From NCBI RefSeq assembly GCF_006345805.1, contig NC_043001.1, forward strand, positions 88,350,001-88,414,000: a DNA stretch of 64,000 bases, given 5' to 3'. Source of the DNA: Octopus sinensis (taxonomy: Eukaryota). Position numbers and translations under genes: made by a program. This document shows, one piece after another, positions 17,477-40,016 of this stretch. Below the pieces are notes generated by a model, which had not been told where the DNA came from, did no database searches, and saw only the letters and a program-made list of their open reading frames with translations. Position 1 is the stretch's first letter; each line of letters opens with the position of its first letter.

Positions 17477-17511
<35 letters not shown>

Positions 17512-17830
17512 GATATATATATATATATATATATATATGAAGATATATATATATATATATGAAGATATATATATATATATATATGAAGATATATATATAT
17601 ATATGAAGATATATATATATATAATATATGAAGCTATTATATATATATAGATATGAAGATATATATATATATATATATGAAGCTATATATATATATATAT
17701 ATGAAGCTATATATATATATATGAGCTATATATATATATATATATGAAGCTATTTATATATATATATAATATGAAGCTTATATATATATATATATATATG
17801 AAGCTATATATATATATATATAGATATATA
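17235..17830. repeat. Composite GAAG(A/C)(TA)n satellite, resuming at 22564 after the LINE and followed by AAAGA(TA)n to ~23810
   Basis: Direct inspection. Confidence 0.9.
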
Positions 17831-17831
17831 G

Positions 17832-17866
17832 TCATATAGTCATTGTAAGCTGAGACGATAAGACGT
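17832..17866 (+). promoter_or_regulatory. Candidate LINE internal promoter: Inr-like TCA(+1) with DPE-like AGACGT at +28
   Basis: Taking the A of gTCAtat (17834) as +1 puts AGACGT at 17861-17866 = +28..+33, the canonical Inr-DPE spacing known from jockey-type LINE promoters. The Inr match is only partial. Confidence 0.55.
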
Positions 17867-18203
17867 GTTTTTACTCCTCTCTGCGCCGGTCAGCAGCAAG
17901 CTTCACAGCTACATTCGTCATAATTGCCCATCACATATATTCCTGTATATTTGAAACCACGCTTTTTCCCAACTCGTGAGTAGACTTTTCCTTAACCACA
18001 AACTATTTTCATAATTTTCAAACGACCAAATATTTTCAAACACCTTCTGATAACTAAAGGATCACCCACACATTAAAAATTAGAAAAAGAGGGAAAAAAA
18101 AAGAAAAGAAAAGAAAGATAAAATAACTACAAGCTCATAATTCAAATACAAACTTCTCAGTATTACAACAAACATTCTGTACAATCAATTCTACATACTT
18201 CTC

Positions 18204-18234
<31 letters not shown>

Positions 18235-18300
18235 TAATAATTAAAAGTAATCAACAAAACGAACGAACAAAATAAAATTTAATAAAACATATCAACCAGA

Positions 18301-19528
18301 ATGGCTAGCCACCAAAAATCCAACAAAAACTGGTCTGATAATGAAGTCGACGTTCTTATCAACACATGGCATGGCCTTACCGAAACAGAGAGCATAGGTG
18401 CTTCGTGTCTGAACGAAATTGCTAAACGAACAGTTCACCATTTGCAAACTCGATCTGAACAGCAGATCCAAAATAAATTAAAAGAAATCGAAGTTGCTTT
18501 TAAATTAATAAATAAACACTTCGATAAACTGAGAAGTGTTTTCTCTTGGAACGCATCACCGGCGCAACAACAACAACAACAACCTCAACAACAACAAACT
18601 CAGCGGCAACAACAACAACAGCTACAGCAACAACAACAACTTCAGCAGCAACAACCTCAGAGGCAACAACAACAACAACAACAGGATGAACCACTCCTTG
18701 ATTCATCTACAATGGCCGATTTGCTAAATGAAACGATTGACCCTCCAGTCATCAGGGTTACACAGCAGGAAGCACCACCCCTTCCTTTCACTGCCCCAGC
18801 AGCTCAATCATCATCATTGTCAACACCATCTCCTCTGCTTACTACTACTAGTACTACTCCCACTATATATCGACAAACATCTTTGTCTTGGAATCAACCT
18901 CCTCAATCATTACCACTGTCAACATCTCTTCTACCTACTACTACTACTACTACAGCTACTACTACTAATGCTATCTCAAGGAATTTACCTCCTACAGGTC
19001 ACAAAGGTCGCCAAAACTTCAACAAAACTATCATCTACACCTTTCACAGCTCACACACACACACGCACCTACACACCCACTCGAAACCCCATCATTTGCC
19101 GATATTCTCTTCGCCATAGACTGTGCACTGATAGAGACTGCAAATTCACCCATTTACCTGGAACAAAACGCTCTATCCCCACAAACTACAACAGCAACCA
19201 CCATAATACAACATCACCACAACCACCAATATCTCAAACAAGGAATCCCCAAATCTGCCGCTATTCCCAGCGAGACAGATTGTGTTTGCACAGGGATTGC
19301 CCCTTTACCCATCTCCGGGGACTCGTCGGACATTTAAAGATAACCACTCACATAAAAATAGCCGCGGCCAGTCACCTGCGGTTCCCTAGACAGGAACCAC
19401 CTCTTCTTCCTCTTTTTAGCTATAATGAATCTAGCAAAAGAACTGGGAAAAAAACATCCAAGCTATCACCCACCGCCATCCACCACTATTACCCCACTAC
19501 ACATGCCATTAAAAAGCAATCAATATAA
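18301..19528 (+). pseudogene. LINE ORF1: Myb/SANT-like N-terminus, polyQ and Thr/Ser-rich linker, two CCCH-type zinc fingers (split over two frames)
   Basis: ORF 18301..19119 begins KNWSDNEVDVLINTW...RSEQQIQNKLKEI. ORF 18728..19528 has CRYSLRHRLCTDRDCKFTH and CRYSQRDRLCLHRDCPFTH (C-x8-C-x4-C-x3-H). Confidence 0.7.
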
Positions 19529-22475
19529 CAAATCACCAAAACAATTAAAACCATCCACACTCGCCTCAACATTTTCTGCTTAATGCCCAAGGCATCAGCC
19601 CTTCCACCAATACACAAAATGGAAGATAAGATTCCTGGAGGACTGGGTCGAGGCCCATCCAACCACATCCCTTTCTTCGTCCTCACTGAAACCATCTTAG
19701 TGACCTCCACTTGGAAGCCGAGGTGAAAGTTAAAAAATTTCAAAACCATTCGTGCTGATCGTGTTGGCAGCAGAAGAAAGGGTGGGACTGCCATTTATGT
19801 CCATGATTCATTCTCACAGAAGAAGCCATGAACATATTTTCGAATGGATACTGCGAAGCAGTCGCTGTATTCAGTCAAACCAACAACTTAACAGTAGTTG
19901 GGCTCTACAGACCACCCCAAACGCCCCTACCATGCTTCAAGGAATGCCTCAACAGCATAAAGTGTTTCATTCAGCAGTGTCAACCTGACAACATTTTAAT
20001 GATGGGAGATTTCAACCTTCCCGGGGTTGACTGGTCTACAAACAGTCTGCCGCCAGGTTCTTCTCTCTCAACCCCTGACAGGGAGGCAGTGGAATCGCTT
20101 CTTGACTTCATGGATGACTTCTTCTTGTCCCAACTGGTACTCGAACCAACGAGATGTCACAAAAACGTCTTAGACTTAATTTTCAGCAATCACACTGATA
20201 CTATCCAAAATATTGCAGTGGAGAAAACCCTACTCTCCGACCATGACATGGTTCTCTGTGATCTGAGATTTCACTGGCCAAAATGCAAAACAAATGTCAT
20301 CCCTCTTGTCATCCATTTGACACTATGGATTTCCACAATGCAAACTGGGAAGCGATCAATAATGATCTTGCACAAGTCGATTGGTCCTTCACGCACACAT
20401 ACACACCCACTAACATCAAAAAGTCCTGGCAGTCACTTGTAGACACCATCACGAACATATGTGCAAGACACACCCCATTAAGATCTGCAAACAAATCTAA
20501 GTGTCGAATCCCTAGAAATAGAAAATCTCTCATAAGGAAAATTAAAAGAATCAACAAAAAGATCAACATGCTGAAATACTGTCAACAGCAACACACCAAC
20601 CTGACTGCCATCTCGTCGCTAGAGATTAAAAACATAAACTCCAAAACAACATGATGTCTATCATCAATAGTCAGCGAAGAGCTGAAGAGGCCTGGGCCAT
20701 TGAGGAGATCAAACTCAATCCCAAAGTGTTCTTTTCATTTGCAAAAAAACACAGAGTCACTGGTTCTACTGTTGGCCCTCTGATTGATGAAAATGGTATT
20801 CTTCAAGACAATGCCAAAACCATGGGAGAAATATTGCAGAAACAATATTGCTCTGTTTTCAGCAATCCTGATATGACTGATCTGGGCTGTATCAGTGATG
20901 TTACTCCCAATACACTTTATCGGACATAACATTTGGCGCTCCTGATGTCTTAGCAGCAATAAAGGAAATGAAGCATAATTCAGCAGTAGGTCCCGATAGG
21001 TTCCCTGCTTGTGTCTTGAAGATATGTCAAAACCAACTTGCACCCCCTCTAGCCAATCTGTGGCGGAACTCATTGGATGCTGGATATATACCAGAAGACC
21101 TTCTATCCCAGTCTGTTGTCCCAGTTTTCCAAAAAAGGAAACAAATCGCTTGCCGTGAATTACCGTCCAATCTCACTCACCTCTCATATCATCAAGGTAT
21201 TTGAGAGGGTGCTGAGATCGCGTATGACTCACTTCCTTGAGAGTCATAATATGCTGAACCCCAACCAGCATGGATTCCGTAATGGGAGAGATTGCCTGAC
21301 GCAGCTACTGCATCATTTTGATGACATTTTGAGAGCCTTGGGAGAGGGTTCCAACACTGATGTCATCTACCTTGATTTCAGCAAGGCCTTTGACAGGGTT
21401 GATCATAAGATCCTTCTGAGAAAGCTGTCCAATATTGGTGTCACTGGAAAGCTGCTGCAATGGATCAAGTGCTTCCTCTCTAACAGAACCCAACATGTTG
21501 TAGTCGAAGGAGTCAAATCCAGCCCAGCCAAAGTCAGCAGTGGTGTCCCACAAGGCACTGTGTTGGCCCACTTCTCTTCATCATCTACATAAATGATATT
21601 ACTGACACCATCAAACACAACAACATCAGAACCTTCGCTGATGATTCCAAGCTCCAGAAGGTCATCAATGGCGTGGATGACCGAATAAACCTTCAGTCAG
21701 ACCTACTGGCTGTTGTCCAATGGGCGGAAAAGAATAACATGTTGCTAAATGAAGACAAATTCGAACTGATCCACTTTGGAAGGGAGGACGCTCTGAAACT
21801 CCCATACTCTCTTCCTTCTGGAGAAATTCTCATGGCATCCAACAACATCAGAGACCTGGGAGTAACAGTGGACAACAACATAAGCTGGGCTACACATATA
21901 AGCAGCAAAGTTGACATGGCCCGCAGAATGGTTCCTGGATTCTCAGAACCTTCCAGTCGAGAGATTCCCACGCTATTATCCTTCTCTTCTCCACTTTTGC
22001 CCGACCCCACCTTGAATACTGCTGTCCACTGTGGTCTTCCTACACAAAACAAAATATTATGAGAATTGAAGCTCCCCAAAGGTCAATCACAAAAAAGATA
22101 GATGGCATGTCAGACCTTGACTACTGGGGTAGACTAGAGAAGCTGAAATTGTATTCACTCCAACGACGCCGTGAACGCTACATTATCTGTATGATGTGGA
22201 AAATATTCCACCAGCACTGTCCGAATGATGTTGGCATCACCTTCAAAATGCATCCAAGGCTTGGACCACGTGCCATCCGTCCACAACAAAAATCTAAATC
22301 GCATCACATAACGACAATACGGCACAACTATTTCACCTCAATTGGACCCGCTCTCTTCAACATTACACCAGGACACGTCAAAAAAGAACTGACCACACAC
22401 ACAAAATTCAAGAAGTCTTTGGACAAATTCCTTCAAACAGTACCGGACAAACCACCCACACCCGGATATGTCTGA
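19520..22475 (+). pseudogene. LINE ORF2: apurinic-like endonuclease + reverse transcriptase, multiple 1-nt frameshifts
   Basis: APE motifs RKGGTAIYV, GLYRPP, MGDFNLP, NVLDLIF, LSDHDMV. RT motifs NYRPISLTS, QHGFR, YLDFSKAFDRVDH, GVPQGTVL, FADDSK. C-terminal RLEKLKLYSLQRRRERY. Confidence 0.93.
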
Positions 22476-22656
22476 AAGACTTCGCCAGGTGGTGCTATTA
22501 AGTTAGACATGGCCTGGGCCAATACTGGCCAAAAACCTTTCTAAGTTAAGTTATTCTAAGTTATGAAGCTACATATATATATATATATATGAAGCTATAT
22601 ATATATATATATATGAAGATATATAATATATATGAAGCTATATATATATATATGAG

Positions 22657-22701
<45 letters not shown>

Positions 22702-23214
22702 CTATATAATATATTATATATGAAGCTATATATATATATATGTATATAAAGATATATATATAATATATATATGTATATAAAGTATATATATTATATTATA
22801 TGTATATAAATATATATATGTATATAAAGATATATATATATATATGTAAAGATATATATTTATATATATAAAGATATATATATATACACACAAAACATAA
22901 GTACATAAATGTACATATATGCACACATATATGTATGTGTATATGTACATTTATCTACCTATGTGCATACTCTTGTTACTATATGTTCTATATTTATATT
23001 TCTGTGCATGTGAATCCATGAACAGGCAAACAAGAGTGTGAGTAAATCTATGTGTACGTGCATGTTTTCATGTACACAATGTATTTATAGTCACCATCAC
23101 TCCGTAATGTTTGTGTGAATATGCATATACATCTTTAAACTTTCCTTATTTATTTATTTATCTATATATATATAAATATATATATATAAATATATATATA
23201 TATGTATATATATG

Positions 23215-23245
<31 letters not shown>

Positions 23246-23779
23246 GTACACACACATATATATATGTCTTGATTAAGAATAAATAATTGTATATTCCATC
23301 TTCTGTCTTTCATTTGCTGTGTATGTATGTATATACATATATATATATATAAGATATATATATATATATATAAAGATATACATATATATATATTTATATA
23401 TATATATATGAAGCTATATATATAAAGATATATACATATGTATATAAAGATATATATATATATGTATATAAAGATATATATATATATGTATATAAATATA
23501 TATATATGTATATAAAGATATATATATATATATATGTATATAAATATATATATATATATAAAGATTATATATCTAAAGATATATATATATATATATATGT
23601 ATATAAAGATTATATATCTAAAGATATATATTATATATATGTATATAAAGATATATATATATGTATATAATATATATATATATATATAAAGATTATATAT
23701 CTAAAGATATATATATATATATTATATATAAAGATAGATATATATATATTTATATATAAAGATATATATATATATATAT

Positions 23780-23814
<35 letters not shown>

Positions 23815-24058
23815 CACAGTTGTGACTGTGTGATCAGAAGCTCGCTTCCCAAGTATATGGTTCCGTGTTCAGTCCCACTGCATTGCATATTAGGCAAGTG
23901 TCTTTTACTATATTCCTCAGGCCAACTGAAGCCTTGTTAGTGGATTTAGTAGAGGAAAACTGAAAGCAGCTCCTACTAGATTCAACAAAATATGTTGCAA
24001 AATACAAGTTCACATCGAGTTTCTTGCAAACCAGATACAAAAATGAAGTGTGCATATA

Positions 24059-24947
24059 TTGGGTCATCCCATAAATAATGTGGTTTTTTATACTTCTTTT
24101 ATGTTTCAAAATTAAGATAACAAACTTCTTTTTCAATCTAAAATATACTCTCCTTCATTTTCTACAATGCTCTTCCATCTATTTTGGAAGGCCCCTCTCC
24201 CAAAATTCTCTTGTCCATGACAAAAAGTACTCCTCCAGCACAGTTCTGACCTCATCTCCAAACTTCATACCTTCTCTGTCTAAATGATTTTGAAGACTGG
24301 AATAAATGATGATCACACGGGGAAATGTCTAGCAAATATGGTGGGTGGAGCTTCGTTTCCCATCCAAACTGCTTCAGTCTTTGGAATGTCCTCCTCGCTG
24401 TATGTGGTAAGCATTATTCTGATGGAAGAACACCTTTCGTATTGAAATCAAAGATGGGTGCTTTTCTTCTAACACTGACTGAAGCTGCTTCCTATACACC
24501 TCCTTGGTTATAATTTGGTTTGGGTTTTAAAGTTCAAAGTGGATAAACCTTTCATATTCCACCAAATATAGCAACACCTTATATGGGTGAAGACCTTTAG
24601 CCTGGAGTGTCAGTGTTTCGCCTTTCCCTACCAACTGTCTTTGGTGTTTGACCTTTTTATAGAGAACCCGTTTATTGTCACCAGTCACTATTCAGTCCAA
24701 AACTGGTTCATTCATGAAATATGGCAGCAAAGAAGATTACGCTTTCACTCTCTGCGCATGATTAGACTTGGAAAGTTTGTGAAGAAACCATCGATCCAAT
24801 GTACTGACTTTTCTGATGGCATACAGGTGTCGATGAAAGGTTGAATGACCAAATCCAAGCTTCTCTGCTAGTTCCTCAACAGTTATGATGAGGTTTAGTT
24901 CCACCAAGTTTTGCAGGACATCTTTGTTGAGCTCTATAGATCTTCCA
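24059..24947 (-). mobile_element. 5'-truncated decayed copy of the same mariner family
   Basis: TA + TIR ttgggtcatcccataaataatgtggtttttt at 24059; minus-strand ORF remnant GRSIELNKDVLQNLVE...TVEELAEKLGFGHST. Confidence 0.88.
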
Positions 24948-25595
24948 GTTATGCCACATTTTCTGTAGGACCTATACAAACATGGAAAAATGGACTTTAA
25001 AACAATGATAATGTACACCATTATCTCCATCATTTTAGCATTCACTTTCTATGGTTGCATGGGTCAGACAATTCATTGAGGCAGATTTTCTATGGCTGCA
25101 TGCCTTTCCTGTTACCAACCCTCACCTGTTTCCAAAAAATGTAATATTTCCCCTTGGCTGAACGTTTTCATGGAAGAAATGTATGACTATGACTCTCTTG
25201 GTAGATCTAGTGCTATAGTAGAGAACACTTACTTCCTCAAGTTGCCACACAGTGGGACTGAACCCAAAACCATGAAGTTGGAAACAAACATCTTAACACA
25301 GCCATACCTGCATCCATTGTAGCAGTAATACATTGACTTTACCACAGCACCTTACAAGTGTCCTAACTAGCCATTGGTAGGTGATGTATCTTCAGCTGAG
25401 TCATTCACAGAGAATTTTAAAACTGGGAAAAGACCAATTTATGAAGAATAATGTTAGTTGTTGGGAAAAATGTGTGTATATTTGTGTGTGTTTGTCTTAA
25501 TATCACACGGTTGTTATAAGTGTTTCAGTCATACAAATGATGTCCTTTGTTCCTTTGTCTCCTTCATGAAAACTTGTCTGGCTGTGTGTGTGTGT

Positions 25596-26567
25596 ATAGT
25601 AGAATAATAAAAATTAAGTCCTTAGTACAGTATATTTGAAAAAATGAGTAGAGATGGCTTTTTGGGGGATACTTTTAATTTTCATAATAATGTTTAGAGT
25701 GGGTTACTCATTATTCTATTGTTGTTCCATGTGGTTCATTTAGGTGTATGATTTGGTCTCTGGGGAGTTCTATTTGTTCTTTGGTTGGGGTTATATGTTC
25801 TCTTATTTCTTGTTATATCTGCGTATGATTGCAAATTTGTGTTTTTTAAAGGACTACGGTATCTTTGACTATTTTATGGGAAAACTTACTTTCTTTTGGT
25901 GGTGCTTTGTAGTCTGAGGACTATTGTAGTAGGTCGGTGTTTAGGTCTTATCTAGTTTTTTCCCATAGATGTTTTTGTATTATTGTAGCCAGAAAAAATT
26001 TGATTCCAAGATCTTCTTACATTCCGTCTCTTCTCTGGTGGTGTCAATTTTCCACATGTCTAGAAGTTTTTTTGGATACTTCCACTTCTTCTTTCGTTAA
26101 TTTCTTCATGTATACAGGTGTCATACTTTTTAAAAATTTCTTTTGGAAGTTTGTTACTCTAAGGTGAAGTAGTGTGATTTCAGCCTCAAATCTCTGTAAT
26201 GCTAAATTGAGGTGAATCGTTTCTTCATTTGGTTCCAACGTTAGTTCTTTGATAGGAAGTTTTCTTGGGAGTATTACTTCTTCTTTGCTCCCCCACTGTT
26301 CATATGCGTTGGCTAGGTTTTTCATTTTTTAAGGCTCTCTAATATGTTTATTTTCTTTTACTTAATATGCTATTCCAGGTGTTTTTCAGTCTCTTCAGAG
26401 ACCAAACCATAGACCCAAACAAGCCACATGAAACAACAATATAATAATGTGTCACCCACTATAAACATGATTATTAAATTTAAAATTATCCCCCAAAACG
26501 CCATCTCTACTCATTTTCTCAAATATATTATACTGTGCCAAGAACTTTCTTTTTATTATTCTACTAT
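25596..26567. mobile_element. ~970-bp element with ~170-bp diverged terminal inverted repeats
   Basis: 25596-25762 vs 26396-26567 (e.g. aaaatgagtagagatggc..ttttgggggata / tatcccccaaaa..gccatctctactcatttt); internal decayed minus-strand ORF 26044..26325. Confidence 0.75.
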
Positions 26568-26935
26568 CTTACGGATTGGTACAAGATAGGATGGCTTACA
26601 CAAGATCAAAATCAGCAGCCAAATTACGGAAATCTGAAACATTATTAGAGGAGAGCAAAAACTTCCAATCATTATAATCATTATAAACAAATATGAATTC
26701 CTTCCATGAAATAAAACAAGAAACATGGACCTACAGAGAAACATATTCCCTTCTTACAAACTGTCATCAAAATGAAAACCAAAGCAGAACTCCTGAAATG
26801 AATACCCACAACCTAAATTCAACCACACAAAGCATTAAAAGAATAGAATGAACTCAACTTAGAAAAGGAGGCATACAAAAAGAAAAGCCAGATGAAAAAC
26901 ATCTAGAATAGCATATATATATGTGTGTGTGTATA

Positions 26936-27260
26936 TCATCATCATTATCATCCGCTTTCCATGCCAGCATGGGTCGGACGATTTGACTGAGGACTAGTGA
27001 ACCAGATGGCTTCACCAGGCTCCAATCTTGATCTGGCAGAGCTTCTACAGCTGGATGCCCTTCCTAATGCCAACTACTCCAAGAGTGTAGTGGGTGCTCT
27101 TATGTGCCACCGGCATGGGGGCCAGTCAGGCGGTACTGGCAACGACCTCGCTTGAATGTTTTTTCATGTGCCACTGGCACAAGTGTGAGTAAGGTGACAC
27201 TGGTAACAATCATGCTCAGATGGTGCTCTTAGCTCCCTACTAGCACGGGGCACAAGTGCC
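26936..27260 (-). mobile_element. SINE-like repeat sharing the RTE 3' UTR and (GAT)n tail
   Basis: tttccatgccagcatggg..ctacagctggatgcccttcctaatgccaac motif; further copies near 8320-8590, 11420-11690, 35910-36030, 36160-36492, 48274-48400, 51690-51842 and 58510-58780. Confidence 0.78.
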
Positions 27261-27439
27261 CCCCCCACACATACATACATACACACACACATACACACAC
27301 ACACACGTATATGTTTTTTTGTGTGTGAGGGTTTGAATTTGTAAATGAGAAAAAGACACCTTAAGTCAAAGAAGTACATTTTGTTTTTTGTATTGAGATC
27401 TTTTGTGTGCAATATTGTTTTCAAGATGTTTTGCATAGT

Positions 27440-27955
27440 GTGATAGTGATGGTGGCTTTGATTAGCATCTTATTTAATTTATGCCACTACCTACTGTGAA
27501 TATTCTCTGACACCCTGTATCTGCCAGCCGGTAAGGCAGTCACTGTTTCAGACATTCAGTCCTCTAGACTGAAGGTTTGCAACAGCTTCAAAACCATCTT
27601 TCATATCATCGTTTGCTCTCTGATCCCACTTCTAGCTACCAACAACATGTGTCCTTCACCATCTGTTAACTCACATTTTTATGCCTTCTACTCCCTACCA
27701 TTAAACTCATAACCTGCATACTTCACATCTCAATCATTTACTTCATCCACAAAATCTACAAATTCAACAGCCAAGGACATCCCACTGTCTGTGTCTGCAA
27801 CTTCTCCACTTAGCTTAGTTCCTTCTATATAATCACCCAATTCACACCTTGTCATTGTACTTCCTTTCTGCAATATGGACCATACCTGCCAACCTTTCAA
27901 CAGATTTCCTTACTGCTGGCCTGTGTCACTTCTTCATCACCTTGGACATCACCCT
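27440..27955 (-). mobile_element. Probable old RTE-like LINE remnant
   Basis: Decayed coding-like sequence including a SICRK-type Cys motif; no intact frame. Confidence 0.35.
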
Positions 27956-27957
27956 GC

Positions 27958-28012
<55 letters not shown>

Positions 28013-28249
28013 CGAAATGCGGAGAGGATGAAACAGAGACAACTGAAGAAGGGGAATATTCTTTATGTTGTCTCGCTTGTCTGTTTTTTTTTTTGTTGTT
28101 CGAAAATAGTTCGTTTCTATGTTTTTTTTATGTTTTCGTTTTTCATTGTGTTCAACGTTTTTTGATGTCCTGTACCCATATACATATATATGTAAGTATG
28201 TACATATATGTATGTATATGTGCATATATTTATATATTATTTATATTAT

Positions 28250-28292
<43 letters not shown>

Positions 28293-28388
28293 CTAGGAAA
28301 TGGATGCATTAGGTTCAGTTAAATAATATGTAATATATATATATATACACACACACACCTGCATATATGAGGACAGGATGTCACCAAT

Positions 28389-28603
28389 GGTGCAAATAAC
28401 ATGAAATACATGAACAAATGAGGGAAAAAAGAGCAAAATATGTAAACAAGAAAAAATGGAAAACAGTTGTTGGCTGTCTATCTACTCCTCGCTTGAAATG
28501 AGTAGATAGACAGCCGACAACTGATGAAGGGTCCTTTCTTTGTGTTTACTTGACCTGTTTTCCATTTTTCCTTGTTGTTTACATACTTCATGTTATTTGT
28601 ACC
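28389..28603. repeat. Fold-back element with a 24-bp inner hairpin
   Basis: 28464-28487 pairs with 28500-28523 (one G-U); outer arms ggtgcaaataacatgaa / ttcatgttatttgtacc and aaaaatggaaaacag / ctgttttccattttt. Confidence 0.85.
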
Positions 28604-28929
28604 ATGCAGATACATACCCTCCCTAATTCAAACTGCCCTTTCCTATGCTCAAGAAGTCAACCTAATCCATGCTCTCACACTCTGCCACTATCCTCAAGCC
28701 ACTACTATCTCTTTTTCATACTGGACACCTTTTGCCCTCAATGAATCATCTTTTGTCTCCTCCAACACCTCCAGTCAGAACTTGTCATGTTTTTGTTATC
28801 TCCCAGCCATAGCTTCTCTCCACCTCCCCATTCCCCCTTCATAATCCTTTCTGCTCTCATTCCTGCTTCCACAGTTGTGCTATCCTTTCCAATGCTACCA
28901 CTGTCACTAGGTTTAACCCCCCCCCTCTA

Positions 28930-29235
28930 TATTTGGGACTACTGCTGCAACTCCTCTAACCTTATCTACATGTTCTAGCATTACTTCCATGATTCAATTT
29001 ATGCTGGGGAAACAGGCTGCTGTCTATCTCAGGTTTTGTAGAATACTTTAGAGAAATTTGGGTTAGCAACAGGCCACTTATCATCAGCATTTCTGCTTCA
29101 TCAAGCATTCCATCCAATGCTTCTTGCTATTCAGCTTGGACTTGAACATCAGTTCTTTTTACACCCTTCTTCCAGATAGGACAAAAGCTTATCTTCTTTC
29201 TACTAACTTTCACTCTCTATGGTTTAAACTCCTGA
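28930..29235 (+). mobile_element. Highly decayed Penelope-like GIY-YIG fragment of a different family
   Basis: CNSSNLIY ... IYAGETG ... QHF...HS ... LIF.L.T...GLN remnants with stops and frameshifts. Confidence 0.55.
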
Positions 29236-31145
29236 CCTCAATCTATGTAATCCACACTTTCATATTAGTATGCCCATACCTGACTGCACATATCCAAATC
29301 CTCTCCACACATATACACAATTCCCTTCCCCATATATACCCTCTTGACCATTCTCACTGCACACCTCTTCCACAAACACACTAACCCTCTTGCATGCAGA
29401 AATACATTCTCACTTATGTGCCTCCACATTCTATTCGGCCTGCTCTAAAAAGTACACATTACTCTTCAATCTCTTTCTCCAGTTTTCTTCCCCTCCCCCT
29501 TCCACACAAAGTCATACACTTCATATGTACATGCTCACACACACACAGCAAGGTAGAACAATACAGTGTATATTGTTCTACCTGATTACATCACTGTACC
29601 CCCCACTTGACATACCTATACATGTATACATACCAACAGCCACCTTCAAACTTTATGATACATATGACACTCCCTTCTTCCTTAGCATCTCACCTTCCAT
29701 AAACATCCTTCACATTCACACTCACATCACCTACACACACAGTTCACTTTGTCCGTTTCTGTCCCCTTTCATGGGTGTACACATGCACTCTTTTTCTTTT
29801 TAACTAACATGTATTTGAATCACATGCACATATACCAAAAATGCAGTTTACCTGGTACACTATCCTATCTAATTACATCACCACATATGCAACATCCTTG
29901 ATGTATATGTTTACAAACTTACTTACACACCAACACACAAACATCCATCCTCAAACTATTTGCTCTAAAACAATGTGCATTTAGTTCCTTTCTTCTTTTT
30001 CTGTTTGCCAATCACTAACTACAAACTTACTGCTATAAAGTTACATTGACACATTTGCATCATTTACACAAACACATCTTCAGCCTCTTCTCCATCTATT
30101 TCCAACCCTTTGTACTGAACCTCTCCTCTTTAGCTTCATCCTCAGTTTTACAGTCTCTTTCTAATACTCTATAACCACACACAAGTTCAGACTTCATGTT
30201 CTTGGATTTAACTTTTCCCCACTTAGCATGCCTTTCCTGGTACCCACCTGAATTTCATATACACATAAAATGTCTTTTTCACAACACACACACACACACT
30301 CACTCTGTCTCTCTCTCACACACACATTTGATTTACACATTACACAAAGCACAACACTATGCATACCAATGTTATTCCTTGATCTAAATGTGAAATTGCT
30401 TTACACACTTGTTCCAACAAAATGCAGCTTTTTTGTTGCACATGCATATTCTTTAATTGACCCTATTTCATTCACTTAGATACTGACATAACACTACAAT
30501 ATGCATACAGGGGTGCACTTGGGCTGTAATTTCACTTAAACATGTCTATGATTTGTGCATATACAAAAATATAAAAAAATTAATATAAATTAATGCTATC
30601 AAATTTACTCAAGTACACAAAACACAATACAAACTTGCACTCACTCAAGCAGATACACACTCATTTCTTCATGTTACTCATTTAAACATATATTTGTATT
30701 TTCATATACACATACTTGTGTCTGTACACACACTCACTTGCAAATAAATGGTATTGACATTGCACTTAGATTCAGATGTACAGCACCCGACATATATGTT
30801 CACACATATGCACATACACACAAGTTCACACAGTCTCATACGCATGCATTCACACAACACATGGAAACAGGCACACATACATACAGACCTCAACATTCAC
30901 CCTTATTCACACACACTCATTTCACCTAATTTGTACTAACACACAAGTACTTATACTCTTGTGCACACTTTCCTTTCTGACTTATAGCCTTTCACCCCAC
31001 ATCTTTTTTTCCCCACAATTTTTGTTATAATTTTGCACATACACTATCTTCTTTGCCCTCCCCATGCTTCTCCTTCATCTCCTTTTCATTCAGAAGAAGC
31101 ACTAACTTCTAAAAACACCAAAGTCACTCTTTTCTTGCAAGTGTG

Positions 31146-31378
31146 AAACTAATATCTATTTCTTTACTACCCACAAGTTGCTAAACACAGAGGAGACAAA
31201 CAAGGACAGACAAAGGGATTAAGTCGATTACATCGACCCCAGTGCGTAACTGGTACTTAATTTATCGACCCCAAAAGGATGAAAGGCAAAGTCGACGTCG
31301 GCGGAATTTGAACTCAGAACGTAACGGCACGCTACGCATTTCGCCCTGTGTGCTAACGTTTCTGCCAGCTCGCCGCCC
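31146..31378 (-). mobile_element. tRNA-derived SINE, well-preserved copy
   Basis: Minus strand ggcggcgagctggcagaaacgttagc (A-box-like), gagttcaaattc (B-box), then gcctttcatccttttggggtcgataaattaagtacc. Confidence 0.8.
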
Positions 31379-31753
31379 AATATCTTCCTCCTATTGTGTT
31401 TTTCTATGTTGTTTTGTAACTGATTTCACCATTTTGTTTCTACTCTGTATTTATCATCATTATCGTTTAGCATCCGTTTTCCATGCTAGCATGGGTTGGA
31501 CTATATATATTTATTTTTCATCCATTTTTCCATGTTAGCATGGATTGTATGAAAACACACTACTGACATGTAGTTTTACAGCTAGAGGTCCTCCCTGTTG
31601 CTAACTCTTACCTTTTTTTACATGTCAGGATTAATTTATTGCACTCATCTAAAGCACGTTTTTATTTTGACTGAGAATATCAGCTAACATCACCAATATT
31701 TAGCTTAAGGGATTTGCAGGAGAACAGAATCTAAACACAAGCATATATATGTA

Positions 31754-31814
<61 letters not shown>

Positions 31815-31823
31815 ATTTATATA

Positions 31824-31998
31824 TATAATACAAATAAGAAAATGGAGAAACAAATTTAGTTTGTTCATCAACTTTCGGATATTAGAATGTTGGCTTGAGT
31901 TTCTCATTTTGCTAGATGAATAAATAATCCAACATTCTAATATCTGAAAGTTGATGAACAAACTAAATTTGTTTCTCCATTTTCTTATTTGTATTATA
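31824..31998. repeat. Fold-back palindrome, 70-bp arms, 35-nt spacer
   Basis: 31824-31893 vs 31929-31998 with a single G-U position. Confidence 0.93.
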
Positions 31999-32168
31999 AA
32001 TTTACAGTAAAAATATTTCTTTACCTTCACCCGTTTAATACAATAAATGAGTTAATTGCATTGCAATTAAAAACCTTTATGTATTAAGAATCTGGGTACT
32101 TTACCAACAGTATATTGGATAAATACTATCCCACAGTGGGTTACACCCATAACCCCTATCTTACTTTG

Positions 32169-32199
<31 letters not shown>

Positions 32200-33357
32200 A
32201 ACCATAAATTTATGTGTGTGTGTGTGTACACACCCATACATTAATATACACACTTGACACAATAACAGTTTAAAATACCACCCTGTACAGCATTTATAAC
32301 ATGTGAAGTTTGCTTTCAAACAATATTGTTTTGAGTATAGTTCCCTTCTGTGGCACCCTGGCATGTGTTTTATAACCCTAGGCTGATTAGGACTTGTAAG
32401 TGGATTTGGTTTAAGGGAACTGAAAGAAGCCCTCTCTGTGTGTGCGTGTCAGCTTTTCTTGACACAACTTGATAATTGTAAGTGGGTGTATCTGTCATAC
32501 ACAAGGTATCATTCATTTCTAGTATTGTTGAAATGTTGATTATGGGGGAAATATCACCTTGATTAAAAACAAGTGGCAACAAGAAAGGAATCCAGCCATA
32601 GAAATCTGTCTCAGTAAACTCTATGCAACCCATGTAAGTATGGAAAACAATGATGATGATGCAAATGTGGAATGACACTTGCTGTAACATTTTGCCGCAG
32701 AGAAACACAGGGCATTAACTTAGAACACTGGTGAATTGCCAGACATGGTGGTTTGACCTGATTTTGTTTCCTCAGTGACAACTACCTTAGACGTTCTAAG
32801 CCAAGCCCAAAATGCTTGTTCTGATAAAGAAATTGGTAAACAAAAGTTTTACTGATACATGCAAAAGCTAGACAGGCTTGAATTAAATTAATATACACAC
32901 TTGAAACAGCATTACATTAGAATACTGGTGAACATGAAATATATATGAATGATATGATGATGACTGAAGCGAGTGGAGTGATGGATGGGGGGAGATATGG
33001 GCACAGGTAAAGCAATGACGATGGACCAAAGCTTAGTGAAGGATGGGTAGTGGTAGAATGATGGCTGGGTATGTAGGACAGCCATTCATAATTTGTGAGC
33101 TTTGTAGGCCATGGGGAGATGAGAGATAAAGGGGTATAAGTGATAAGGGATAAGATGATAGAGTTAAATGGGGTGATTAGTGAAATATATGTAGATATAC
33201 TATATATATGTATTATACATGTATAAGTACAATCATTTCTACTGAAAAGGGCATATATAATATTTGAATAAATAATGAAATAATCCCATGTCATGCCTTT
33301 ACCCCTTTTGCTTTATCCCTGATTACTCCTAATTGGTATTTTCTCTGTCTTTTCTAG

Positions 33358-33452
33358 GGGAGCTTTCTCAATTGTACGGAGATGTGTTCAGAAGTCTACA
33401 GGACTGGAATTTGCAGCTAAAATTATTAACACGAAGAAACTCTCCGCCAGAG
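33358..33452 (+). CDS. CaMKII: Internal coding exon of calcium/calmodulin-dependent protein kinase II (end of Gly-rich loop through the AAK catalytic lysine)
   Basis: Polypyrimidine tract + ttctag acceptor; G GGA GCT TTC TCA ATT GTA CGG AGA TGT ... AAA CTC TCC GCC AGA G; donor gtaggt. Translation (K)[31 protein letters not shown](D) is the hallmark CaMKII sequence. The 95-nt length and phase 2/phase 1 boundaries match the conserved second coding exon of CAMK2 genes. Not in the ORF track. Confidence 0.96.
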
Positions 33453-33503
33453 GTAGGTGTCTGACTTTTAAAACTAACTACACCAGTTTGTATTATATAT
33501 ATA

Positions 33504-34750
33504 TTGGGTCATTCCATAAATAATGCGGTTTTTTCAATTGCATAGAATAAAAGTGGGAGGGGGACAGGATTTACTACCTGCTTCAACTTGCTATAAAAGC
33601 AGGTAGTAACTTTACTTTGTACTTATTCTTAGTGTGAGTTTTAACAGTTAAATTTTCAAAGCTATAATGAAAGTGAGAAAGGAGCATATTTGGCTTTATG
33701 AGTTCAATAAAGACAACAACGCAACAAAAAAGTGCGAGGAATATTAATCCAGTGTATGGGAATTGGACAATATGCGTAAGCCAGTGTCAACAGTGTTTCC
33801 AGAAATTCTGAGCCAGAAACTACAGCCTAGAAGACAAGCCTTGTCTTGGAAGATCTGTAGAGCTCAATGAGGTTGTCCTGCAAACCTGATGGAACAAAAT
33901 CCCATTGTAACTGTTGAGGAACTAACAGAGAAGCTTGGATTTGGTCATTGAACCATTCATCACCGCAAAACCTGTGTGTCATCGGAAAAGTCAGCAAATT
34001 GGATCAACGGGTTCTTCACAAACTTTCCAAGTCTAATGGCATGTAAAGAGAGAATGGGTGCTCTTTGCTGTCACGTCTCACGAATGAACCTTTTTTGGAC
34101 CAAATAGTGACTGGTGACAATAAATGGGTTCTCTATAAAAATATCAAGCACCAAAGACAGTGGGTAAGGAAAATAGAAACATCGGCACCCCAGGCTGAAG
34201 AAGGTCTTCACCTACATAAGGTATTGTTATCTGTTTGGTGGGAAATTAAAGGTTTAGTCCACTTTGAACTTTTAAGCTCAAACCTGACAGTAACAAAGGA
34301 GACTACTGCGAGCAGCCTGAGCAAGTGCTAGAAGAGAATTGACCATCTTTGGTTTCAAGATGAAAGGTGTTCTTTGGTCAGGATAATGCTTGGTCACATA
34401 CAGTGAGGGTGACATTCCAAAGGTTGGAGCAGTTTGAATGGGAAATGATTCCCCACCCACCTTATTTGCTTGACATTTCCCCATCTAATTATCATTTATT
34501 CTGCAGTCTTCAAATCATTTGGATGGAAAAATTATGAATTCTGTAGATGCGGTTAGAACAATGCTAGAGGAGTATTTTTTATCATGGACAAGTGAATTTT
34601 GGAAGAGGGGCCTTCCAAGTCTATCAAATGGATGGAAGAGCACTGAAGAAAATGAAGGAGTGTATGTATTAGATTAAAAAAGAACTTTATTTTGATTTTG
34701 AAAAATAAAAGAAGTATGAAAAAAACCCACATTATTTATGGGATGACCAA

Positions 34751-34751
<1 letters not shown>
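33504..34751 (+). mobile_element. Full-length decayed mariner (Tc1/mariner) transposon, ~1.25 kb
   Basis: TIRs ttgggtcattccataaataatgcggtttttt / aaaaaacccacattatttatgggatgaccaaa, with TA on both sides. Transposase remnants FLDQIVTGDNKWVLY, LHLHKVLLSVWWEIKGLVHFELL and a decayed PYSPDLAP-like motif near 34450-34500. Confidence 0.92.
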
Positions 34752-34784
<33 letters not shown>

Positions 34785-35006
34785 ATGCATGCATGCAAAC
34801 GTACATACATTCACAAGGTGTCCATGAATTATCTTTACAACTAGATGTGTTGTGTGCAACCATGAGTTGTACAGTTTAACTGAATATATATATATATACG
34901 TATATATGGGTACAGAATGTCACAAAACGTAAACAACTTGAAATATGAACTATGGTATATATATATATATATATACATACACACCCACACACATACATAT
35001 GTACAT

Positions 35007-35822
35007 ATTCTTTTATTCTTTTACTTGTTTCAGTCATTTGACTGTGGTCATGCTGGAGCAAATCGACTCCAGGACTTATTCTTTTGTAAGCCTAGTACTT
35101 ATTCTATTGGTCTCTTTTGCCGAACCACAAAGTTACGTGGACGTAAACACATCAGCATCGGTTGTCAAGCGATGTTGGGGGGGACAAACACAGACATACA
35201 AACATATACACACACATACATATACACATATATATGACCGGCTTCTTTCAGTTTCCGTCTACCAAATCCACACACAAGACTTTGGTTAGCCCATGGCTAT
35301 AGCGGAAGACACTTGCCCAAGGTGTCACACAGTGGGACCGAACCCGTAACCATGTGGTTGGTAAGCAAGCTACTTACCACACAACCACATACTCTTTTAT
35401 TGTTTTACTGATTTCAGTCATTTGTCTCTGGCCATGCTGGAGCACTGCCTTTAGTTGAACAAATTGACCCAAGGATTTATACTATGTAAGCCTAGTACTT
35501 ATTCTATCGCTCTATTTTGCTGAACAGCTAAGTTATGGTGAAATAAACACATCAACATTGGTTGTCAAGCGATGTTAGGGGGGCAAACACAGACACACAA
35601 ATACATATATATATATATATATACATACATACACACGCACACACACACACACACACACACATATTTATTTATACACACACACACACGATGGGTTTATTTC
35701 AGTTTCTGTGTATGAAATCCACTCATATGGCTTTCATTAGCCTGAGGCTATAGTAGAAGACTCTTACCCAAGGTGCCGCACAGTGGGACTGAACAAGGAA
35801 CCATATGGTACCACACAGCCAC
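35007..35822 (-). mobile_element. Two tandem copies of a second tRNA-derived SINE with internal (TG/TA)n
   Basis: Copies at about 35007-35387 and 35391-35822 share the head gttcggtcccactg..caccttgggcaagtgtctt and tail ctccagcatggcc..aatgactgaaacaagtaaaaga; a head-only copy lies at 23812-23970 (+). Confidence 0.78.
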
Positions 35823-36107
35823 TCACTCACACACACATGTATGCATGACAACTGTCTGACAAATTGAGAACATGAAACAGTTTTGTGTGTGTGTGTGTGT
35901 GTGTTTATATATCATCATCATTATTTAACATCTGTTTTTCCATGCTGGCATAAGTTGTACAGTTTAACTGAAAACTGATAAGCTGGGGAGCAGCACCAGG
36001 TTTCAGTCTGATTTGGCATGGTTTCTACAGCAGGATACACATGTATATATATAGAGATACACACACAAATATATATGTACACACACATGTATATATATAT
36101 ATATATA

Positions 36108-38209
36108 CTAGCTGAAGGTGACCCGCTCTACGCGCGGGTAAGAGTGTGGTTGTTACTTTCTGTTGCTTCCTTTCAGCACGTAAAAAGCACCATCCGAACG
36201 TGGCGGATTGCAGCGCTGCCTTGACTGGCTTCTGTGCTGGTGGCACGTAAAAAGCACCAACCGATCGTGGCCGCTGCCAGCCCCCCTGGCACCTGTGCAG
36301 GCGGCACGAAAAAAGCACCCACTACGCTCACAGAGTGGTTGGCGTTAGGAAGGGCATCCACCTGTCGAAACACTGCCAGATCAGACTGGAGCCTGGTGCA
36401 GCCTCCTGGCTTCCCAGACCCCTGTCAAACTGTCCAACCCGTGCTAGCACGGAAAACGGACATTAACGATGATGATGATGATGATGATGATGATTCTCCC
36501 TCTTTGTTTCTTTCTCCTTTCTCTCTCACTTTCCCACTCTCTTACTCTTCCTTCTCTCGGACTCTCCCTCGCTTTCTCTTACTCTCTATCTTTATGTATC
36601 TCTCTCCCATTTATAACAACAAAAGATCTTGAGTAAGTTGAGAAATAAAATATTTAGAAAGATCAATCATAAATATCAGGCAGTTACAAAGGAAAGGTCT
36701 GCTTGAAGACAGACAGCAAAACACTAACATTTAAAAGGGACAGACGAACTTGCGAGCTGAATAAAAATAATAAAATATTGGAAACCAAAGTTTGAAGGGA
36801 TAGAATTTGAGGATAGTAGAGTCACCATGGCTGGCATTTCTTAACGACGGACAGCAACGTATTGACAGTTCAACGGCTGGCGTAAAAGTTTGAACTTGAT
36901 GTAAAAGAAAATCCCTAAAAACCAAGTTTTGACTTGATTCTTTCTCACGACAGTAGACTCACGATGGCAAGCATTCAAAACTTCTTCATCATGGACGGCA
37001 ACACATTGACGATTAAAAGGCTGGAGCAAATTTTTTAGCTTGATGTAACAGAGAATTGCTAAACACCCGCTCCTTTAAATTTTAATCCCCTTCCAGCCCC
37101 ATTTATACCCCTTTTCACCTTTTGGTTAATATAACCCGATTTAATTTGGGTCTACTGGGGCCACATTTTATAAGATGAGGACACAACCAAGTTTCCCAAT
37201 TTCTGGTCATAGACCATAGAACACTCAACCAAGTTTCCCGATTTCTGGTCATAGACCATAGAACAGTCAAGCAAGTTTCCCGAGTTCTGGTCATAGACCA
37301 TAGAACACTCAACCAAGTTTCCCGAGTTCTGGTCATAGACCATAGAACACTAAACTAAGTTTCCCGAGTTCTGGTCATTTGCAGAATAAATAGAGACGGC
37401 GGAGGTGGCAGACGTCGTTGCAATGTAAACATGATTTGTTATAAGAGAAAGATTGCCCAGATTGTGTGTTGGTGGTGTTGGTGGTGGCGATGATAATTAT
37501 CATTAGGAAAAAGAGTGAGTGAGTGAGGAAGACATACATAAGTTGTGGCGATGATAATTGTAGACCCCTTTTCACATTTTGATGAAGAGAACCCGATTTC
37601 ATTCGGGTGTACTGGGGCTACATATAGGTGTGTGTGTGTGTGTGTGTGTGTGCACGCTGTAGAAATTAAATTAGAGATAAAACCACTAATAGGGAAATGA
37701 AACAGTAAAAAACCAAAAACAAAAACATAAAAATAAAAATATAATATTAGATATATGAATATATGTGTGTGTGTGTGTGTGTGTGTTGACAGGTAGACAA
37801 TAGAATGCGATGGCGATGGGGATGGCGAGTAATATTTGTTACTGTCCATGAACGCTGAGAGATACATGAGTAAAATGTATAGGAAGGTAAGAGATAGAGT
37901 GAGTGAAAATGTTCTTGGAAGAGAGTAAATCGCGACAGAATGATTTGAGGAAGACTTTACATTAAATAACGGTAGTTGCATTGTCAAATGAAGAGGAGTG
38001 ACAGAGTACTGGAGGAAATAGGGTGAGGTAGGAAGATGGCCCCTAGCAACCACACCTTTTAAGATAGGGATTTGTAAGGTAGTCCACGCGCATCGTCACC
38101 TCATTCTACATGTCCATGTAAATTTTGGAGCGAATCGGACGGGATGTAGTGGCATTGAAAGCGAACCAAGCGGTAAAAACGCAATTCAGTTTTATATATA
38201 GAGAAGAGA
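36108..38209 (-). mobile_element. Non-autonomous Helitron (~2.1 kb) with a nested SINE-like insert and internal tandem repeats
   Basis: Minus strand reads A|TCtcttctctatatataaaa ... acccgcgcgtagagcgggt hairpin ... CTAG|T: canonical TC/CTAG termini, subterminal hairpin and A/T insertion site. Confidence 0.8.
37184..37378. repeat. 42-bp minisatellite (~4.6 units) inside the Helitron
   Basis: Unit aagtttcccgagttctggtcatagaccatagaacactcaacc; gives the 14-aa periodicity of ORFs 37115..37336 and 37152..37343. Confidence 0.93.
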
Positions 38210-38214
38210 TATAT

Positions 38215-38312
38215 ATTTATTTTATAGAAGGAGCTTCTACAGGACTAGAACTGTTTCATTCAAAAGAAATCATCAGTTCTAGTCCTGTAGAAGCTCCTTC
38301 TATAAAATAAAT
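38215..38312. repeat. Perfect 39-bp-arm palindrome, 20-nt loop
   Basis: atttattttatagaaggagcttctacaggactagaactg / cagttctagtcctgtagaagctccttctataaaataaat. Confidence 0.95.
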
Positions 38313-38377
38313 TAATTTACTCTGCTATGTATTGAGTACCTTATTTACTGTGGTTAACCCCGACTCAACCCGGGACC

Positions 38378-38425
<48 letters not shown>

Positions 38426-38429
<4 letters not shown>

Positions 38430-38628
38430 GGCATGCTGAAAAGTTCCTAGCTTTGGGTGAAAGAAAATACAGGAGGGTCAGTTAATCATATTCCCCTCTC
38501 AGATTCATACACTTGTTGCGGCTGTCCTTCAGTTTTTCTAACCCCTGTAAAAGAACTTGAAAGGTTGCACCTCCAACCTGGCCTTTTATGATACCCTGAA
38601 AGTCAGGAACTTTTCAGCACCCCCCTTG
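38426..38628. mobile_element. Mariner-type MITE (~200 bp)
   Basis: TIRs tgagggcatgctgaaaagttcct / aggaacttttcagcaccccccttg flanked by TA on each side; no coding capacity. Confidence 0.8.
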
Positions 38629-38871
38629 TAATGAGTGCACGAAAGCGCACATATTACCTTTAAAGTGTTTTACCTCAACATTGTCACACTATAGAACTGT
38701 AAGGCAAATATGAATTAAGTCAAATATTTCATTACCCTCTATTATGTACTGCTTGATAAGTACACATCTCTTTATAACTTATATGTTTGATCATATTCAT
38801 AAAAGGACACATGTATTCATATATATACATCTGTCTGTCTATAAGTATCTTTATTGTGCATGTGTGTGTAT

Positions 38872-38902
<31 letters not shown>

Positions 38903-38911
38903 ATATATATA

Positions 38912-38944
<33 letters not shown>

Positions 38945-38946
<2 letters not shown>

Positions 38947-40016
38947 ACTTAGAAAGGTTTTGGCCAGTATTGGCCCAGGCCATGTCTAACTTAATAGCAC
39001 CACCTGGTGAAGTCTTTCAGTTCAGGATTTGGGCACCAAGGCCCATTCGAGCAGAGAGTTATTGTTTGCGGAGACATATCCGGGTGTGGGTGGTTTGTCC
39101 GGTACTGTTTGAAGGAATTTGTCGAAAGACTTCTTGAATTTTGTGTGGTCAGTTTCTTTTTTGACGTGCCCTGGTGTAATGTTGAAGAGAGCAGGTCCAA
39201 TTGAGGTGAAATAGTTGTACCGTATTGTCGTTATGTGATGCGATTTAGATTTTTGTTGTGGACGGATGGCACGTGGTCCAAGCCTTGGATGCATTTTGAA
39301 GGTGATGCCAACATCATTCGGACAGTGCTGGTGGAATATTTTCCACATCATACAGATAATGTAGCGTTCACGGCATCGTTGGAGTGAATACAATTTCAGC
39401 TTTTCTAGTCTACCCCAGTAGTCAAGGTCTGACATGCCATCTTTTTTATGATTGACCTTTGGGGAGCTTCAATTCTCATAATATTTTATTTTGTGTAGGG
39501 AGACCACAGTGGACAGCAGTATTCAAGGTGGTGTCGGGCAAAAGTGGAGAAGAGAAGGATAATAGCGTGGGAATCTCTCGACTGGAAGGTTCTGAGAATC
39601 CAGGAACACATTCTGCGGGCCATGTCAACTTTGCTGTTTATATGTGTAGCCCAGCTTATGTTGTTGTCCACTGTTACTCCCAGGTCTCTGATGTTGTTGG
39701 ATGCCATGAGAATTTCTCCAGAAGGAAGAGAGTATGGGAGTTTCAGAGCGTCCTCCCTTCCAAAGTGGATCAGTTCAAATTTGTCTTCATTTAGCAACAT
39801 GTTATTCTTTTCCGCCCATTGGACAACAGCCAGTAGGTCTGGCTGAAGGTTTATTCGGTCATCCACGCCATTGATGACCTTCTGGAGCTTGGAGTCATCA
39901 GCGAAGGTTCTGATGTTACTGTGTTTGATGGTATCAGTAATATCATTTATGTAGATGATGAAGAGAAGTGGGCCCAACACAGTACCTTGTGGGACACCAC
40001 TGCTGACTTTGGCTGG
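38945..40016 (-). mobile_element. 5'-truncated copy of the same CR1/L2-type LINE (last ~1.07 kb)
   Basis: Reverse complement closely matches ~21525-22550 (LGPLLFIIYINDI...FADDSKL...RLEKLKLYSL); the 3' end abuts (TA)n. Confidence 0.93.

What the first reader, a model, noticed from the sequence alone, without database searches (positions are those of the whole stretch)
21525..40016. CaMKII exon sits in the loop of two nested inverted transposon pairs
Seen: LINE(+) 21525-22550 > mariner(-) 24059-24947 > exon 33358-33452 < mariner(+) ~33845-34751 < LINE(-) 38945-40016. Both pairs are antiparallel and correctly nested: ~1 kb near-identical outer stem and ~0.9 kb diverged inner stem. Established: intronic inverted repeats promote back-splicing and exon skipping and are ADAR substrates, and coleoid cephalopods edit neural RNA heavily. 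Inference: the 95-nt, frame-shifting, catalytic-Lys exon could be skipped, circularised or edited under TE control.
Basis: partly seen in the sequence, partly recalled or inferred. Interest (0 to 1): 0.7.

Follow-up and report, generated by a model that had tools for sequence, protein, structure and literature searches.

The report
Chance transposon pairs around CaMKII exon
In an octopus gene for the memory kinase CaMKII, two pairs of opposite-facing jumping-gene copies do enclose one exon inside the same transcript, but the copies are separate insertions from two very abundant families and the exon is spliced in normally in the RNA examined, so this is likely an accident of crowded long introns rather than a control switch.

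Summary
The geometry is real and lies in one pre-mRNA. Exon 33358-33452 is CaMKII coding exon 2, between introns of 34.5 and 54.5 kb. It is enclosed by a mariner pair (83%, 8.9-kb loop) and a LINE pair (98%, 16.4-kb loop). A third LINE copy just past the window adds a 2.1-kb stem.

Neither pair is more alike than unlinked copies of its family (about 3,000 and 5,000 candidate places), so these are separate insertions with no sign of co-adapted pairing. Such double nesting is rare (about 1e-5 per position) but expected roughly 1-10 times per genome.

In 3 of 3 RNA-type runs the exon lies unedited in spliced contigs. No back-splice joint was listed (24 of 39 joints hidden), and 393 nt of the inner arm showed one difference. 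Contigs drop rare, hyper-edited and NMD-degraded forms, so minor skipping or editing is not excluded. Skipping would give a stop after 30 codons; 95 nt is short for a single-exon circle.

The scan noted a similar LINE pair at DPP4 in this genome (e1-9509151). Verdict: TBXT-like layout, no shown function.

The parts
17845..22557 (+). Near-full-length young APE-type LINE in intron 1, sense to CaMKII; 21525-22557 is the outer upstream arm. Coding frame broken by several indels.
   Evidence: PF14529 at 19807-20439, PF00078 at 21053-21589, weak Myb/SANT match in 18286-19116; homology to unlinked copies from about 20,120 on; indels against 14 or more of 17 copies at 8 places; 5' end inferred from the end of the TA array
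16720..17830 (.). (TA)n-type microsatellite on the 5' side of the LINE
   Evidence: TRF
22573..23812 (.). (TA)n-type microsatellite on the 3' side of the LINE
   Evidence: TRF
24057..24947 (-). Truncated old mariner copy (3' 0.9 kb with one terminal repeat); inner upstream arm
   Evidence: 83% to the downstream copy
33358..33452 (+). CaMKII coding exon 2, 95 nt; Lys43 codon at 33419-33421
   Evidence: joined to exon 1 and exon 3 in RNA contigs
33502..34753 (+). Full-length decayed mariner with both terminal inverted repeats; 33847-34753 is the inner downstream arm; possible poly(A) signals at 34119, 34245, 34673, 34704
   Evidence: PF01359 E 5e-15; terminal repeats; 5339 candidate family places, the 39 others scored 81-85%; hexamers
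38947..40016 (-). 1.07-kb 3' fragment of the same LINE family; outer downstream arm; TA repeat at its 3' end
   Evidence: PF00078; 3154 candidate family places, the 39 others scored 97-98%; its 5' junction is not shared by a contig of DNA run X17
23821..23970 (.). Short repeat with an inverted partner at 35241-35389 (75%); a third nested pair, one of several short ones

Best explanation
Separate insertions of an old mariner family and a young LINE family lie in the long first two introns of octopus CaMKII in opposite orientations around exon 2, which is included in the spliced RNA examined; the arms are predicted to pair in only a minority of nascent transcripts, where ADAR would likely edit the intronic stem, likely without any regulatory effect on the kinase. 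Shown: gene model, geometry, family-level identity of the arms, exon inclusion as the main form. Inferred: rare pairing over 9-42 kb, intronic editing, absence of function.
For: (a) The upstream LINE is closer to 27 of 29 unlinked copies than to its partner (97.7%; mean among unlinked copies 98.9%), and the two fall in different branches. (b) The mariner pair is 83.5% alike; the upstream arm is 82.8-85.5% alike to 19 unlinked copies. Duplex energy is -1126 kcal/mol against -1094 to -1167 with 10 unlinked copies. The G-U share of transitions is 0.57, equal to the mean for the downstream copy against unlinked copies. (c) Both families are abundant. 28 of 29 LINE copies end in TA/TG-type repeats and 7 of 12 visible 5' junctions abut TA repeats, which offers a reason for local clustering. 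(d) Expected count about 1-10 per genome. (e) Exon 2 lies with 0 other letters in contigs of 3 of 3 runs; X4's 1102-nt contig joins exon 1, 2 and 3 unbroken. (f) 37 of 37 Octopus CaMKII proteins listed carry exons 1-2-3 unchanged. (g) Octopus circRNAs are few and low (296; PMC9699675, passages and supplement passages). Single-exon circles have medians of 169-253 nt (PMC6376117, passages). Alu editing falls from about 16% at 300-400 nt to about 1% at long range (PMC526178, passages).
Against: The layout is a strong outlier: 3 long flanking pairs at exon 2 and none at 19 other mapped exons. No copy of the young LINE was found in 1 Mb elsewhere, yet three lie within 49 kb here. The stems are 3-7 times longer than Alu pairs and very stable in silico (-1946 kcal/mol for the LINE pair). 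The G-U share (0.57) is just above the range for the upstream arm against unlinked copies (0.44-0.56). The RNA test cannot see hyper-edited reads (92% likeness cut), NMD-degraded skips or non-polyadenylated circles; tissues are unknown; 24 of 39 joints were hidden. Protein records would not list an NMD isoform. Octopus has exceptionally high hyper-editing (PMC5625713, passages). The predicted intronic editing was itself not seen.
Confidence: 0.72

Rival explanations
1. TBXT-like loop-out: the nested stems bring the exon 1 donor and exon 3 acceptor together, exon 2 is skipped in a meaningful share of transcripts, the frameshifted RNA is destroyed by NMD, and ADAR editing of the stems tunes CaMKII dose.
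For: All arms in one pre-mRNA; three long stems; skipping gives a stop after 30 codons; the mechanism is proven for TBXT (PMC10901737, passages) and C. elegans zip-2 (PMC8330042, abstract); NMD would hide the product.
Against: Contigs run unbroken over the exon 1-2 junction in 3 of 3 runs. No selection signal on the arms. The stems still leave about 19 kb of intron 1 and 22-48 kb of intron 2 between the splice sites that must meet. The TBXT skip is in frame; this one is not.
Confidence: 0.08
2. The transposons act without pairing: the sense mariner 50 nt after the donor (or the sense LINE in intron 1) supplies poly(A) signals or slows splicing, giving an exon 1-2 read-through transcript that ends in the mariner and encodes a 76-residue kinase-dead stub.
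For: Locus-specific contigs with 0-1 differences cover the start of intron 2 and the mariner in 3 of 3 runs from three studies; X1 has a contig reading from exon 2 into intron 2 (33423-33534). AATAAA/ATTAAA at 34119, 34245, 34673, 34704. The read-through frame stops at 33521-33523.
Against: The same contigs fit nascent RNA or oligo-dT priming at the A-rich tract at 34701. Contigs give no ends, strand or level. The runs were picked for holding words of 33200-33700.
Confidence: 0.1
3. The stems drive back-splicing of exon 2 into a stable 95-nt circular RNA with a role of its own.
For: Second exons with long flanking introns are the commonest back-splice acceptors (PMC6376117); young transposons flank circRNA loci (PMC8516420, abstract).
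Against: All downstream arms lie before exon 3, so only a 95-nt single-exon circle is possible, well below the reported medians; no 33452>33358 joint among the 15 of 39 listed; octopus circRNAs are scarce.
Confidence: 0.04
4. The outer stem as assembled is specific to this haplotype: the downstream LINE fragment is absent or differently bounded in other animals.
For: In DNA run X17 a 1068-nt contig lies on 40010-40982 and goes on for 95 letters that do not lie on the LINE.
Against: X17 differs at only 2 of 1419 flank letters, while the LINE copy has 8 private changes in 1054; so the insertion may be older and only its 5' junction differ. The 95 letters were not shown, and 1064 pieces were hidden. 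This reading is compatible with the best explanation.
Confidence: 0.06

Closest known systems
TBXT exon 6 loop-out by the AluSx1/AluY inverted pair (PMC10901737; passages read)
   Same: An older and a younger intronic transposon in opposite orientation enclose one coding exon.
   Different: There skipping is shown, in frame, and needs both Alus. Here skipping was not seen and would frameshift; arms are 0.9-2.1 kb rather than about 0.3 kb, with loops of 9-42 kb.
Reverse-complementary-match-driven circRNA and skipping (zip-2, PMC8330042, abstract; young-TE circRNA loci, PMC8516420, abstract)
   Same: Exon 2, long flanking introns, young repeats in opposite orientation.
   Different: No circle detected; exon shorter than typical single-exon circles; no conserved match shown. 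PMC8516420 itself argues most such circles are by-products.
ADAR editing of inverted repeats in introns (Alu pairs, PMC526178; cephalopod repeat-directed editing, PMC9068888; PMC5625713; passages read)
   Same: Long, near-perfect inverted repeats in one pre-mRNA, in an animal with heavy repeat editing.
   Different: Distances are far beyond the optimum reported for Alus, and no editing was seen in the 393 nt covered.
Inverted LINE pair around the DPP4 catalytic exon in the same genome (scan note e1-9509151, unreviewed)
   Same: Same type of layout, and by that note no skipping seen.
   Different: One pair there; I did not check that locus.

Membership tests
CaMKII coding exon 2 | Sequence match to CaMKII with AG/GT ends and in-frame neighbours | tested here: met
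   junctions in RNA contigs
Inverted-repeat exon loop-out (TBXT type) | Inverted repeat arms in both flanking introns of one pre-mRNA | tested here: met
Inverted-repeat exon loop-out (TBXT type) | Skipped isoform is produced | tested here: inconclusive
   Only inclusion in 3 of 3 contig sets; exon 1-3 junction not searched directly; contigs drop rare forms
Inverted-repeat exon loop-out (TBXT type) | Skipping depends on both arms | not testable with these tools
   needs deletion, minigene or allele comparison
Repeat-driven circRNA locus | Back-splice junction present | tested here: inconclusive
   none among 15 of 39 joints shown; no RNase R data; the 296-circle list of PMC9699675 was not in the supplement text searched
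ADAR hyper-edited inverted repeat | A>G clusters in RNA over the paired arms | tested here: inconclusive
Selected (co-adapted) RNA stem | Partners more alike or better pairing than unlinked family copies | tested here: not met
mariner/Tc1 DNA transposon | Terminal inverted repeats, TA ends, DDE transposase remnant | tested here: met
APE-type LINE | Endonuclease followed by reverse transcriptase, with 5'-truncated copies | tested here: met
CR1/L2-group LINE | Clade placement by RT phylogeny | not tested
   label recalled from motif resemblance only; no reference tree built

The most novel reading that the evidence does not exclude
Recent LINE insertions have put the catalytic exon of octopus CaMKII under a transposon-built, ADAR-tunable unproductive-splicing switch: when the stems are unedited, exon 2 is looped out and the RNA is lost to NMD, so neural editing level, and presence or absence of the young LINE, sets CaMKII dose between tissues or individuals.
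Probability: 0.06. Interest if true: 0.62.

Novelty: new member of a known kind. Interest (0 to 1): 0.22.

Why it matters
If the stems controlled exon 2, this would tie transposons, cephalopod RNA editing and a core plasticity kinase into one testable mechanism, possibly with natural allele variation at the outer arm. On present evidence it is an unusually tidy example of a known layout, useful as a test locus for whether kilobase stems form across 9-42 kb loops, but not a shown regulatory system.

Tried and rejected
No RNA holder listed: none of the runs is on record as RNA (kind is a guess); I treated X1, X4 and X6 as RNA because their contigs join exons. Parts without cover, no evidence either way: 32240-33331 (end of intron 1) had no depth in the three RNA-type runs apart from one bin in X1, and X1 had none at 40076-41400. 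X18 and X19 did not cover the unique flank at 90% likeness, so they say nothing on the LINE insertion. A pattern search for the exon 1 end missed it; it was found by scanning fetched flanks. Local duplication or gene conversion between arms: rejected. An A>G bias among private changes of the three LINE copies: not seen (2 A>G of 23 changes). Summed contig depth suggests thousands of copies but is not a copy number and was not used as one. Exon map gaps: residues 114-138 and 316-321 of P0107 were not mapped, so the 20-exon comparison lacks at least one exon and merges two introns. The null is a homogeneous Poisson model resting on 18-60 long pairs; short pairs within 5-20 kb were 2.3 times the expectation (48 against 21), so it underestimates clustering. 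Literature: 'octopus + CaMKII + RNA editing' gave 4 papers, none on this locus by title or abstract; 'CaMKII + circRNA + exon 2 + back-splic' gave 17, of which 15 were listed and one checked (10.1101/2025.09.18.676988, passages, not relevant); 'camk' does not occur in the main texts of PMC9699675 or PMC9068888. Supplement files 1 and 3 of PMC9699675 yielded only 24,410 characters of text, so its isoform annotation and any circRNA list were not seen and could bear on the claim. No scan note was near this place or like the LINE arm.
Full report
Observation. Self-comparison of the window gives the two pairs as the best non-simple inverted repeats. The LINE arms match at 1010 of 1031 aligned letters, with a 53-nt gap; the mariner arms at 756 of 906. 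The exon is 95 nt, translates to a CaMKII N-lobe segment and matches CaMKII structures best. That Lys43 is the ATP-binding lysine rests on my knowledge of the kinase fold.

Gene model. Exon 1 (L029:8764-8828) ends 1.2 kb before the window and exon 3 (L032:3941-4000) starts 24 kb after it. Twenty-two exons of an Octopus CaMKII protein map over about 412 kb. Intron 1 is 34.5 kb and intron 2 is 54.5 kb, so all arms lie in one pre-mRNA. 37 of 37 Octopus CaMKII proteins among the 120 listed start with exons 1-2-3 unchanged; one cuttlefish model has a different N-terminus joined to exon 3.

The elements. The upstream LINE arm is the tail of an element of about 4.7 kb with endonuclease and RT domains, set between two TA arrays of over 1 kb, with several frame-breaking indels. 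The downstream arm is a 1.07-kb 3' fragment. A third copy lies at L030:541-2709, also antisense in intron 2, and gives a 2139-nt stem. The family is young and large: 3154 candidate places, and the 39 other copies scored are 97-98% alike. The downstream mariner is complete, 33502-34753, and begins 50 nt after the donor; its family has 5339 candidate places at 81-85%.

Are the partners special to each other? No. The upstream LINE is closer to 27 of 29 unlinked copies than to its partner, and the two sit in different branches (the 29 were chosen as best matches to the downstream copy). The mariner pair's identity and duplex energy fall inside the range for unlinked copies; its G-U share equals the mean for the downstream copy against others and is just above the range for the upstream copy. 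The near identity of the outer stem reflects family age. 28 of 29 LINE copies end in TA/TG repeats and 7 of 12 visible 5' junctions abut TA repeats, so a preference for TA tracts is likely.

Chance. Short inverted pairs are common: two or more pairs of 200 bp or more flank an exon with introns this long with P 0.38-0.55. Long ones are not: two pairs of 800 bp or more have P 0.0007-0.003 for such introns and 8e-6 to 3e-5 within 20 kb. That equals 22-82 kb of genome in such double loops, a few to about ten loci, of which some hold an exon; clustering raises this. Exon 2 is the only one of 20 mapped internal exons with a pair of 500 bp or more. The layout is a true outlier, but one that a whole-genome scan is expected to meet; the scan already noted a similar single pair at DPP4 (e1-9509151).

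RNA. Three RNA-type contig sets from three studies were laid on 32240-34755. Each has a contig covering exactly 33358-33452 with 0 other letters. X4's 1102-nt contig shows exon 1 before and exon 3 behind; X1 shows exon 3 behind and 93 further letters before; X6 runs off at both ends (letters not shown). None of the 15 joints shown is a back-splice, but 24 were hidden. Locus-specific contigs cover 393 nt of the paired mariner arm (126 A) with one difference in all. The A>G differences over the LINE arm in X1 belong to other copies and recur in DNA run X17. These data show inclusion as the main form and no high-level editing in unknown tissues. They cannot exclude rare skipping, NMD-degraded RNA, circles or hyper-edited molecules. 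Skipping would end the frame after 30 codons.

One oddity: all three sets hold RNA from the first 1.2 kb of intron 2, and X1 reads straight from exon 2 into it. Nascent RNA, internal priming at 34701 or polyadenylation in the mariner could each explain this.

Other animals. In DNA run X17 a contig leaves the reference 7 nt inside the LINE's 5' end and continues for 95 unlaid letters. Either the arm is absent there or its 5' junction differs. X17 has 2 differences in 1419 flank letters, while the copy has 8 private changes in 1054, so I do not claim absence. The downstream mariner is present in both organism labels laid.

Known systems. The layout resembles TBXT exon 6 (PMC10901737, passages) and repeat-driven circRNA loci (PMC8330042 and PMC8516420, abstracts), but their defining products were not found. 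Priors cut both ways. Exon 2 with long introns is a favoured acceptor, yet single-exon circles are long (PMC6376117, passages). Octopus circles are few (PMC9699675, passages and supplement passages). Alu editing decays to about 1% with distance (PMC526178, passages), while cephalopods edit repeats widely (PMC9068888 and PMC5625713, passages). My six searches found no paper on this locus.

Verdict. Real and uncommon geometry from separate insertions; most likely incidental, with at most minor intronic pairing and editing (0.72). A regulated skip-to-NMD switch is not excluded (about 0.06-0.08). Interest 0.22.

Noticed in passing
L030:541-2709 (just past the window end): Third copy of the young LINE, antisense in intron 2; three copies within 49 kb, none in the other 400 kb first fetched or in 1 Mb sampled elsewhere.
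   Followed up: yes
L047:8473 to L048:2338: 1.85-kb inverted duplication at 99.7% with a loop of about 160 nt inside a later CaMKII intron: a far better ADAR substrate than the pairs reported, or an assembly artefact.
   Followed up: no
window 33453-34755: Locus-specific RNA contigs from the start of intron 2 and the sense mariner in 3 of 3 runs; possible read-through or intronic polyadenylation.
   Followed up: partly
window 18286-19525: ORF1-like region of the LINE with a weak Myb/SANT match (E 7e-5, below cut-off), a polyglutamine tract and CCCH-like motifs; the family appears to prefer TA microsatellites.
   Followed up: partly
window 40010-40016: 7-letter overlap at the LINE 5' junction where the X17 contig departs; unlike most truncated copies this junction does not abut a TA repeat, suggesting a deletion at or after insertion.
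   Followed up: partly
window 15640-16406 and 37184-37378: 62-bp minisatellite (12.5 copies) and 42-bp tandem repeat (4.6 copies); a 100-N gap lies at 14245-14344.
   Followed up: no
window 38430-38630: Short element that by eye has inverted ends, probably a miniature DNA transposon.
   Followed up: no
L003 and L005 (contig C8597): Two CaMKII association-domain matches of about 100 codons on a small contig; not examined, possibly foreign DNA.
   Followed up: no
L018:7440-9938 and L043:9267 to L044:1758: 2.5-kb inverted pair at 99.1%, 318 kb apart, one copy upstream of CaMKII exon 1 and one in an intron.
   Followed up: no
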